From Bryobacterales bacterium (GTDB lineage: Bacteria > Acidobacteriota > Terriglobia > Bryobacterales > UBA6623), in the NCBI GenBank assembly GCA_965247305.1, contig OZ252030.1:4903699-4967698 (forward strand): 64,000 nucleotides of DNA, given 5' to 3'. Shown here in pieces: positions 45,001 to 48,000 of this stretch (position 1 is the first letter of the stretch; the number at the start of each line of letters is the position of its first letter). The position numbers are program-made.

Positions 45001-48000
45001 TCGGGGTGGAAGCGGACAGCGCGCGTGGAAAGATTCGTCAGGAACCTTGCGTTGAGAGAGATACGGAGGCCTGCATCGGCAGGGGGGCTGCGCGCTCGTA
45101 GAGGCGCGGGTCGCCAACCCGGCGAGGGGAATCCACAACCCTTGCTGGGGTTGGTGCGGGAGTCGGAGGGGCGCGTAGTAGCGACGAAGCTCGGTAATGC
45201 GGGTGGAGCGAAGGGCCCCTGGCGTTTTAATGCTGACGGAGTCAGACAAGCATGCTAATTGCGACAGAAGGGAGAGCCGTTTATGTTCAAAAGATTCCAC
45301 TTGCTAGCCCGGCGATGCCGGAGAAACTCTCTCGTTTGAGACAGAAGCTGGGCCAAAAGGCCAAGCAGCGGTGTCCGCTGCTGCGCATGCCTGAGGCGAG
45401 AGCTTGTTGGAGAGCCGGATGCGGGAAATCCGCAAGTCCGGTTCGATGAGGGGGGAGGTCAAGCCCGCTTGCGGGACCCTCCCCTACTCTACCGGCTCAA
45501 ACGCGAGACCTTCCGCGGCAACGGAGCGCACCCGCGCTCCTAAGGAACACTTTACTGAGGAGCTTGGATGGGGACGAGTTCGAAGCCATAACTGCGGGCT
45601 CGAGATCTGAGGCGGTTCTCGTTTCGTTTGTGTTGGCGTTGTTGTTCTCTCCTAAGGAACACTTTACTGAGGAGCTTGGATGGGGACGAGTTCGAAGCCA
45701 TAACTGCGGGCTCGAGATCTGAGGCGGTTCTCGTTTCGTTTGTGTTGGCGTTGTTGTTCTCTCCTAAGGAACACTTTACTGAGGAGCTTGGATGGGGACG
45801 AGTTCGAAGCCATAACTGCGGGCTCGAGATCTGAGGCGGTTCTCGTTTCGTTTGTGTTGGCGTTGTTGTTCTCTTGCGAAGACGGTTTCGTCATAGGCCT
45901 CGCCCGTCGTGACGAGGTGATAGATGATGCGCGCCAACTTGTGCGCGGTCGCCGTCGTTGCCGCCGGCGGTCCCAGTCGCGCGCGCATGCGGCGATGGTA
46001 GTCACCCAGATACGACTGGTCGCGAACGAGCGACTGCGATGCAATGCGCAAGGCGACGGCCAGCCGATTGTTCACCTTGCGCGTTCCACGCCGGATCACC
46101 TTGCCGCCCGTCACGTCGTTGTGCGGACAAAGCGCCGCCCACGAACTGAACGCCGCCGCGCTCGGAAACTTCGAGAAGTCAGTGCCGACTTCGGCGACCA
46201 CCGCCTGAGCGCTCAGCGCTTGCAAACCCGGCACGGCCGTCAGGTCCGTCCCCAACACGCGATAGCAATGCGAGCGCAAGTCGAAGTGCGCCTGGTTCCC
46301 ACGCCGATTGTGTCGCGCCGGCGCTAAGGGTTGTTCTTCAAGATCGACCTTCGCGGGCATGTCGGCAAAGCGCGCTTCGATCTGCTGATCGCAGGCCTCG
46401 ATCAGTCGCTGGTAGTAACGATAGGTTTCCAACGCCTGCTGCAAGGTGAACAAATGCTCATCGCGATAATTCCCCGTCAGCGCCTTGGCGATCGTCGCCT
46501 CGGACGAGCGTACGCGCGGGTCGCGCAGCTTCGCCAAAACTACCGGGTCGCGTTCGCCTGCAAGAATGCTGTCGAGTATGCGCAGCCCACTCCGACCGCT
46601 GATGTCCGCGAGCACGTGGTGCAATTGCAGGTTCATTTGGTCGAGCGCTTTCTGCATGTGCTGCACGTGCGCGGCGGCGTAGCGCACCAGATTTTGGCGA
46701 TGCCGCAGCAGCACCCGTAAGGCACAGATATCGCTCGCCGGACGAAAAGACGCGCGCAGCAGCCCGACCGCATGCAGGTACTGCAGCCATTGGCAATCGA
46801 GCACATCGCTCTTGCGTCCGGGCACGTTCTTGACGTGCCGAGCGTTGACCAAGCAGACCTCGAAGCCATGCTTCTCAAGGATGTCGAAGAGCGGAATCCA
46901 GTAGACCCCGGTCGACTCCATGGCGGCGGTCTTGACGCCGCACTCTTTGAGCCAAGCGGCGAGCCGCTCGAGGTCGACGGTGAATGTGGAAAAACAGCGA
47001 ACGGGTTCGGGGTCGCGGTCGGGTGCAACGGCGACGTAGACTTCTGTAGCACCGATATCGATGCCGGCCGCGTCGTTACGGATCTTCGTGGGCGCGACCT
47101 GACGGGCGGGTTTTCTGCGATTGCGTTTGCGCATAGCGGGCTCCTCCTCCTAAGGTGAGGAGCGGGTCAGGGCGGCCCGGCCGTGCAAAGCTTGTAGTCT
47201 CCTAAACGGGATCGTCGCCAGGATGATCGGCGGCGTCACCACTCACAAGCGCACCGGACCGGCGGCCATGCTCTTAAGCGGGCTGCGAAATCGCACCATT
47301 GGCGCAACGGCCTCGAACTGCCGCCCTGCCCGTCCTCGTCGCCAACGCTAGCGCACTCCCTCTCGCCGTGTTCCTTCCCTCCAGGCCCCGGTCGCACCGC
47401 CGGGTCAGTCGCTCTTAAGAAAACATGAATGGCCTACTGTTAGAGGCGACCACGCATTGCGGGCACCCGCGAAAGATGCTTGCCGACGGATCAGGGGCCT
47501 AGCTCGCGGTGCAATAATGTCCGTCTAATGGCGAACGAACAAAAACCGCTGCGCTCCCAGGAATGGTTCGGACGAAACGACAAGCGTGGATTTATCCACC
47601 GCTCGTGGATGCGTGCCGAAGGATTTCCCGATAGCGTCTTTCAAGGCAAGCCGGTCATCGGCATTTGCAATTCCTGGTCGGAACTGACGAACTGCAACGT
47701 TCATTTGCGCGATGTCGCCGAGGCGGTCAAACGTGGCGTCTGGTCGGCTGGCGGCTTCCCGCTCGAGTTTCCGACGATCTCACTCGGCGAGCCCTTCATG
47801 CGGCCGTCGACTATGATGTTCCGCAACCTGATGGCGATGGATGTGGAAGAGTCGATTCGCGCCAATCCGCTCGACGGTATCGTCCTGCTCTGCGGCTGCG
47901 ACAAGACGACGCCGGCACAATTGATGGGTGCGGCCAGCGCGAATCTCCCTTCGATCATGGTCACCGGTGGCCCCATGCTCAACGGAAAGTGGCGCAATCA

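What a model noticed while it worked through the whole genome (the two positions that open the first line are those of the whole stretch)
45537..45874. IS110 element amplifies its own right end into tandem arrays through a cryptic internal site
Two of 12 copies of an IS110 element end in head-to-tail repeats of their last 110 or 112 bases (3 units here, 2 units at C1:2197.9-2198.2 kb), and two more pairs are tandem dimers of the whole element. The repeats start at an internal AAGAGA that resembles the left end, so the recombinase likely joins the right end to this cryptic site. It would show a direct route from a bridge recombinase to repeat arrays, and an off-target reaction relevant to its use as a tool.
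Evidence so far: TRF: 112 nt x 3.0, 100% identity. All left and right ends are listed in call 28; the junctions TTAGGAG|AGAAC and TTAGGAG|AAC against the internal GCAAGAG|AAC are shown in call 29. The two loci have different unit lengths, so they arose independently.
(Added by a program. Inside this text positions count along the whole contig: contig position 4,903,699 is position 1 of the stretch shown here. "Call 12" and the like, gene names such as g00115 and contig names such as C1 are that model's own, and its searches are not shown. The text may have been shortened before it was handed on; [...] marks where a part breaks off. The agent that wrote the report below was given it as the finding of a first reader that could run no searches.)

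Follow-up and report, generated by a model that had tools for sequence, protein, structure and literature searches.

The report
IS110 duplicates its own right end
An RNA-guided jumping gene carries three identical copies of its last 112 bases, most likely because its enzyme joined its right end to a nearby look-alike of its landing site; such in-place duplications are already described, but the two-base slip at these joints seems not to be.

Summary
The array is real: 3 x 112 nt at 45537-45874 and 2 x 110 nt at a second locus. Read contigs from two runs break exactly where the 112 joint predicts. The element is a 1649-nt IS110 with an AG core.

The internal site (CGCAAG-AG) mimics the target half of the left junction, not the element's left end. 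A better left-end mimic 1048 nt away is unused. Independent origin of the two arrays is likely but not proven.

A 2026 preprint (10.64898/2026.08.14.744561) already reports 468 repeat-unit expansions and 437 whole-module duplications with one-sided matches. The units lack the bridge RNA and spacers, so they are no route to guide arrays.

What I did not find in print:
- Both whole-element dimers and the 112 array carry an extra AG, a 2-nt slip.
- A mirror 232-nt duplication of host DNA ends at another copy's left junction.
- All 5 joint types fit the handshake base of the loop holding the kept half (post hoc).
- Thr stands in the catalytic Ser slot.

The scan found related IS110 end arrays on other DNA, but not this layout.

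The parts
45763..47411 (-). IS110 element, 1649 nt, starts CGACT and ends CCTTAGG; 12 copies that differ at one base
45776..47134 (-). Recombinase ORF, 452 aa; D26 E73 D110 D113; Thr342 where 145 of 159 related loci have Ser
45761..45872 (-). Unit 1, the native last 112 nt with the AG core (last codons of the ORF, stop, right end)
45649..45760 (-). Unit 2, identical copy; joint TTAGG-AG-AGAAC
45537..45648 (-). Unit 3, identical copy; ends in the outer core AG
45871..45878 (-). Internal target-like site CGCAAG-AG; 2 mismatches to the target guide (one a predicted G-U wobble), the best of 19 AG sites within 40-500 nt of the right end
46809..46816 (-). Second CGCAAG-AG site, followed by CGATG (a better left-end mimic); not used
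47271..47278 (-). Target-loop guide CTTAAGAG (3' loop strand), followed by the handshake base C; matches 7-8 of 8 at all 10 left junctions
47302..47306 (-). Target-loop 5' guide TGCGC; pairs with right flanks in relatives but not better than chance in this genome
47199..47206 (-). Donor-loop guide TTTAGGAG (3' loop strand), followed by the handshake base A; its last 7 nt equal the right end plus core
47412..47499 (-). Left part of the REP-like target repeat, ending in CTTAAG-AG
45493..45536 (-). Right part of the REP-like repeat; lacks the 17 nt that follow the core in the repeat's consensus
44754..45492 (+). Neighbouring group II intron with no RT reading frame, in the hairpin part of the same repeat; not part of the array

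Best explanation
The array is a tandem duplication of the last 112 nt of an IS110 element, most likely made when the element's own recombinase-bridge RNA complex joined the right end, at its AG core, to a target-like site about 110 nt upstream on the same or the sister chromosome, with replication or repair inferred to fix the joint. Shown: the ends, the AG core, the guides (by covariation), the exact anchoring at the core, and three RE-anchored joint registers (dimer +AG, 112, 110). Inferred step 1: the donor loop holds the right junction through its 7-nt guide alone (half-match). Inferred step 2: the partner is the nearest site that looks like the target half (CGCAAG-AG); in this element the other target guide adds nothing, so one arm is enough. 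Inferred step 3: one strand is transferred and the product is resolved in place, giving right end + core + internal sequence with no left end. Inferred step 4: the partner reads AAGAG, so the join can fall at either AG; the donor-loop handshake base (A) would favour a register with A after the core. That would be both registers at the internal site (110 and 112) but only the slipped one at a left junction (dimers with an extra AG). Unit 3 likely arose by a repeat of the reaction at the first joint (CTTAGG-AG, 7 of 8 to the target guide) or by unequal crossover. The arrays are likely by-products without function.
For: 3 of 20 near-identical arrays in the genome end at a core. The donor guide equals the right end in 98 of 152 related loci with a parsed guide, across 7 sequence variants, against about 1% by chance. 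The site used has 2 mismatches; the other 18 AG sites within 40-500 nt have 3-6. Microhomology is only 2-3 nt and five other sites offer the same 3 nt. About 21,000 genomic sites match the target guide as well or better, and an equal internal site at 1048 nt is unused, which points to a local reaction. Dimer partners share the SNP allele at both dimer loci. A mirror 232-nt duplication of host DNA ends at the left core of copy C1:5339137. Handshake frame: the base after the target guide equals the first base of the left end in 42 of 43 distinct related elements. All four RE-anchored joint types have A at +1, against 2 of 10 outer right junctions (Fisher p 0.015); the flank duplication has C at +1. 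Precedent: single-strand transfer of one junction to a new target (CazIS110), tandem repeats in 3 of 96 excision colonies, half-match recombination, repeat-unit expansions.
Against: No experiment, and no circle or intermediate seen. 17 of the 20 arrays lie away from IS110 ends, several with 3-6 nt of microhomology, so slippage-type duplication is active in this genome. No right-end array in 81 related loci with >=150 nt downstream, though many are short-read assemblies. The handshake rule is post hoc and rests on three sites. It does not hold for normal insertions here (2 of 10). Three deletion joints after TTAGG-AG have C at +1, not A. Target and donor guides differ by one base, so either loop could hold a junction, which weakens the test. 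No guide pairing explains a cut at the first AG.
Confidence: 0.72

Rival explanations
1. A circle of the element inserted into the internal target-like site of a resident copy, and host recombination between the 1.5-kb direct repeats collapsed the nest, leaving two right ends.
For: The product has the same sequence as the 110 array. This element inserts on a one-arm match (right flanks pair 2.1 of 5 vs 2.03 by chance). IS110 lacks target immunity according to the preprint.
Against: About 21,000 sites are as good or better, so a free circle would not pick this one twice. No nested copy and no use of the equal site at 1048 nt. The 112 array would still need the slip.
Confidence: 0.1
2. Replication slippage or host end-joining at 2-3 nt of microhomology made the duplications without the recombinase.
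For: 17 other near-identical arrays exist in the genome; the joints share AG or GAG, and GAGC at the 232-nt one.
Against: Three arrays end exactly at cores (about 1e-7 for 2 of 19). Microhomology does not single out this site.
Confidence: 0.07
3. One reading: an excision-type join of the right end to a cryptic left end.
For: Excision joins a right junction to a left junction, and the internal site does match the target half of a left junction. At the 112 joint 2 of 5 bases match the left-end start.
Against: 0 of 5 match at the 110 joint; the better left-end mimic is unused.
Confidence: 0.07
4. Assembly fault.
For: The units are identical. The 110 and dimer joints are not seen in the listed read contigs, and X3 shows no break.
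Against: The break at 45874/45845 in X1 and X2 matches the simulation only with the 112 joint; unit depth is raised in all three runs of the sample. The two 232-nt units differ by one base.
Confidence: 0.04

Closest known systems
In-place tandem expansion of IS110 loci (bioRxiv 10.64898/2026.08.14.744561, Fig. 4B, C, E; abstract, sections 8 and 9 and passages read; figures and supplements not seen)
   Same: Tandem repeat units next to the transposase (n = 468) and tandem whole modules (n = 437). Unit boundaries keep one donor arm only, and the authors propose resolution in place.
   Different: Their units are called non-coding; here 97 of 112 nt are coding. The text has no mention of register or handshake. 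They say units keep LD. Here the kept end is the ORF-right end, which my guide mapping puts in IS621's RD role; I could not tell how they orient AG-core elements.
Half-match recombination of IS621 (bioRxiv 10.64898/2026.08.31.748434; parts 1-3 of 6 and passages read)
   Same: One arm plus core is enough for excision and for off-target insertion (47% of non-target reads).
   Different: Experimental and about insertion and excision; in-place duplication and slipped registers are not in the passages found.
CazIS110-1 direct transfer and tandem by-products (bioRxiv 10.1101/2025.10.25.684509; parts 1 and 3 of 5 and passages read)
   Same: [quoted passage not shown]
   Different: Their repeats are of the whole cargo; here partial units and an extra AG.
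IS621 bridge RNA system (PMC11208160, PMC11208158; passages read)
   Same: DEDD + Tnp domains, two-loop RNA in the non-coding left end, 2-nt core, REP targets, handshake covariation.
   Different: The element lies reversed relative to IS621's frame (AG core on the ORF strand), and Thr stands in the Ser slot.
ISPpu9 / ssr9 modules (PMC12288879; passages read)
   Same: AG core, REP target, alternative joins at AG dinucleotides, including outside the ends when the ends were mutated.
   Different: Modules carry both ends and can circularize; the units here carry only the right end.
TIGR arrays (PMC12045711; passages read)
   Same: Repeat arrays beside an IS110-related protein.
   Different: TIGR units are guide RNAs with spacers; these units are identical and hold no guide. 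That paper proposes TIGR as ancestral to IS110.

Membership tests
IS110 (IS110 group) | [quoted passage not shown] | tested here: met
   77.9 bits vs cut-off 29; D26, E73, D110, D113 conserved in 158-159 related loci
IS110 (IS110 group) | Tnp domain (PF02371) | tested here: met
   43.5 bits vs cut-off 21.3
IS110 (IS110 group) | Conserved catalytic serine in the Tnp domain | tested here: inconclusive
   Thr342 in the slot; Ser in 145 and Thr in 14 of 159 related loci. The slot is assigned from the conserved S-G motif; no alignment to a solved IS110 was obtained
IS110 (IS110 group) | Scarless insertion at a 2-nt core present at both ends | tested here: met
   Empty paralog C1:7878872 against filled C1:4613573, and empty REP copies
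IS110 (IS110 group) | Bridge RNA in the non-coding end with guides for target and donor | tested here: met
   Guides covary with flanks and ends; the single-sequence fold alone is not significant (z -1.2); expression not shown
IS110 (IS110 group) | Circular intermediate | not testable with these tools
   Single-core end-to-end joints in relatives L066, L079, L101; none seen for this element
IS110 in-place tandem expansion (2026 preprint) | Units >=50 nt, >=95% identical, >=2 copies, at an IS110 locus | tested here: met
   criteria
IS110 in-place tandem expansion (2026 preprint) | Unit boundary keeps one donor arm only | tested here: met
   Right end + core kept, left-end start absent
IS110 in-place tandem expansion (2026 preprint) | Made by the resident recombinase | not testable with these tools
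   Inferred from anchoring
IS110 mini-elements (ssr9/MITE type) | Both element ends present | tested here: not met
   Units lack the left end; no solo copy elsewhere in the genome
TIGR- or CRISPR-type guide arrays | Variable spacers or guide RNA in the unit | tested here: not met
   Units 100% identical; the guides lie 1.3-1.4 kb away in the left end

The most novel reading that the evidence does not exclude
The handshake base of the bridge RNA chooses the register of half-match joins. Where target plus core reads AGAG, the right end is joined two bases off register, so dimers and arrays carry a dead joint that cannot serve as a donor and therefore persist. Near-identical target and donor guides, and perhaps the Thr nucleophile, make this element duplicate DNA at half of its loci (5 of 10). 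This would give a design rule for bridge editors: avoid core repeats and target guides that resemble donor guides.
Probability: 0.3. Interest if true: 0.62.

Novelty: new member of a known kind. Interest (0 to 1): 0.4.

Why it matters
As a class the phenomenon is already reported, so this is a clean single-genome example. Its value is base-level resolution: five joint types from one element at five loci, with mapped guides. They give sharp predictions on how one-sided reactions pick a partner and a register, which the preprint calls unresolved. If the handshake/register rule holds, it bears on duplication by-products of bridge recombinase editing. It does not bear on the origin of guide arrays.

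Tried and rejected
Right-end arrays in relatives: none. TRF and self-BLAST on 96 loci gave 5 arrays. Four (L039, L043, L044, L052) were read and lie outside the right end in REP-type DNA; L045's lies 1.5 kb beyond its end. Among 159 loci (L029-L187), 98 had a definable right end and 81 had >=150 nt downstream; the two flagged (L034, L114) are a contig overlap and a neighbour's end. One search had a pattern bug and was redone. In the genus, 1 of 6 other genomes holds the element, as a 5'-truncated copy. The metagenome scan covered 25 of 64 parts and found no near-identical copy. No RNA holder listed. A direct read test of the 110 and dimer joints was not obtained, so those stay open. PDB sequence search found no IS110 structure. 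The idea that arrays form where the right flank starts with CG (2 of 2) was considered and set aside: it is post hoc, only the first base of the left end is conserved in relatives, and the window's CG may itself come from a deletion. Paper searches for the slip and for a Thr nucleophile found no description; bioRxiv supplements and figures could not be seen and may hold such cases.

Full report
Observation. TRF finds a 112-nt unit in 3.0 identical copies at 45537-45874. It is the 3' end of a 452-aa IS110 recombinase gene on the minus strand (PF01548 and PF02371 above cut-off). The genome holds 12 copies of a 1649-nt element in 10 loci, differing at one base, and 15 right ends. Six loci are single, two are dimers, the window locus has two extra units and C1:2196394 has one extra 110-nt unit.

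Is it real? Four of 23 listed runs were laid as contigs. In X1 and X2 a 114-nt contig covers exactly the unit and the next contig begins at 45845. A k=31 graph simulated from the genome breaks at 45874/45845 only when the 112 joint is present. X3, from the same sample, runs through; X5 holds a diverged copy. Unit depth is 1.42-1.60 times the body, against 1.25 expected from the assembly and 1.0 without arrays; a GC difference (52% vs 63%) may add to this. The contigs are simplified: breaks predicted for the 110 joint, the dimers and a small insertion are not in the listed pieces, so these joints are not confirmed by reads. The sample may be the one assembled.

Ends and register. An empty paralog reads CGCTCAAG-AG-AACC, and its filled twin has CGCTCAAG-AG before the element and AG-AACC after it. 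Empty REP copies agree. So the core is one AG, the target half is CTTAAG and the element starts at CGACT, as in the closest relatives L030 and L031. The expected end-to-end joint is TTAGG-AG-CGACT, and relatives show single-core joints (L066, L079, L101). Both dimers here read TTAGG-AG-AG-CGACT, and the 112 joints also carry the extra AG. Only the 110 joint is in register.

Bridge RNA. The left non-coding end holds CTTAAGAG (47271-47278), matching 7-8 of 8 at all 10 left junctions, and TTTAGGAG (47199-47206), whose last 7 nt equal the right end plus core. In 159 related loci the donor guide was parsed in 152 and equals the right end in 98. Both strong guides sit on the 3' strands of their loops. 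By the geometry in PMC11208158 the element is therefore reversed relative to IS621, with CT on the other strand (inference). This frame is supported by covariation: the base after the target guide equals the first base of the left end in 42 of 43 distinct elements, as a handshake base should (relatives are not independent). The 5' target guide pairs with right flanks in relatives (3.2 of 5 vs 2.1 shuffled, n = 47) but not here (2.1 vs 2.03). This element inserts on one arm.

The internal site. It reads CGCAAG-AG: two mismatches to the target guide, the best of 19 AG sites within 40-500 nt of the right end. What follows matches the left-end start at 0 of 5 (110) or 2 of 5 (112) positions. An equal site 1048 nt upstream is followed by CGATG (3 of 5) and is unused. 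The site is thus target-like and chosen by nearness. About 21,000 genomic sites match as well or better, which argues against free circles.

Further events. Genome-wide TRF gave 89 rows, 20 with period >=50 and >=97% matches. Three end at a core: the two arrays and a 232-nt duplication of host DNA that ends at the left junction of copy C1:5339137, with joint CTTAAG-AG-CCCGT and one difference between units. The chance of 2 of 19 is about 1e-7. The other 17 lie away from these ends; I inspected 15 of them and several show 3-6 nt of microhomology. The window locus also lacks 17 nt of REP sequence right after the core, and two empty REP copies with the right-end-like allele TTAGGAG have deletions that start at the same place. 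In all, 5 of 10 loci carry an end-anchored duplication; none of 81 related loci has a right-end array, though short-read assembly hides such repeats.

Mechanism. The best reading is a one-sided join by the resident recombinase, resolved in place. CazIS110 moves a single junction to a new target by one-strand transfer and yields tandem repeats in 3 of 96 colonies; IS621 recombines on half-matches. The slip is possible because target plus core reads AAGAG. All four right-end-anchored joint types have A after the core, the donor loop's handshake base, against 2 of 10 outer right junctions (p 0.015). The left-anchored joint has C, the target loop's handshake base. This would explain why dimers slip: in register they would present C. 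A second possible reason is survival, since in-register dimers rebuild a donor and revert. Against the rule: it is post hoc, rests on three sites, fails for normal insertions here, and the three deletion joints have C. Independent origin of the two arrays is likely (my estimate 0.7) but one origin plus a 2-nt slip is not excluded.

Prior work. bioRxiv 10.64898/2026.08.14.744561 reports 468 repeat-unit expansions and 437 module duplications whose unit boundaries keep one donor arm, and proposes resolution in place. I read its abstract, two results sections and passages, not its figures or supplements. Searches and term look-ups in the two 2026 preprints found no account of a slipped register, a handshake rule for it, or a Thr nucleophile. 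For 10.64898/2026.03.19.712850 I saw the abstract and outline only; PMC9333248 and 10.1101/2023.06.07.543989 only as search listings. The units hold no guide and no spacer, so the link to TIGR-type arrays is not supported.

Verdict. A real, most likely recombinase-made duplication; a new example of a recently described kind, with an apparently undescribed 2-nt slip that is directly testable. Interest 0.4.

Noticed in passing
G000 C1:5338670-5339137: 232-nt tandem duplication of host DNA ending exactly at the left core of an IS110 copy; mirror image of the right-end arrays.
   Followed up: yes
window 46109-46111: Thr in the conserved Ser slot of an evidently active IS110 recombinase; Thr in 14 of 159 related loci, including the closest ones.
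   Followed up: partly
G000 C1:2136843 and C1:5348486 regions; window 45536/45537: Deletions in the REP-like repeat (17 nt and about 26 nt) start exactly after TTAGG-AG and join it to CG; possible recombinase footprints.
   Followed up: partly
G000 C1:3360124-3360152: An empty REP-like copy carries 27-29 nt identical to the IS110 left end, inserted 6 nt after the core; unexplained.
   Followed up: no
REP-like family, about 40 copies: The least conserved column of the alignment is the base that separates the target allele (TTAAGAG) from the right-end-like allele (TTAGGAG); both IS insertions are in the target allele.
   Followed up: partly
window 47147-47154: A perfect right-end-like CTTAGGAG just upstream of the start codon, in a predicted hairpin over the ribosome site; could release a left-end-only mini-element, but none is in the genome.
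   Followed up: partly
window 44754-45492: Group II intron without an RT frame, in many copies, inserted in the hairpin part of the same repeat.
   Followed up: no
L064, L079, L094, L097, L098, L101, L150, L162, L185: A clade of related IS110 elements sits directly after right-end-like sequences, in L079 and L101 those of another IS110, giving in-register mixed tandems.
   Followed up: no
L043:3072-5147: 129 nt x 16 array of REP-type DNA starting about 200 nt outside the right end of a related IS110.
   Followed up: partly
L029:1900-2500: A 98%-identical copy has lost its left end and first 34 codons, apparently to another insertion.
   Followed up: no
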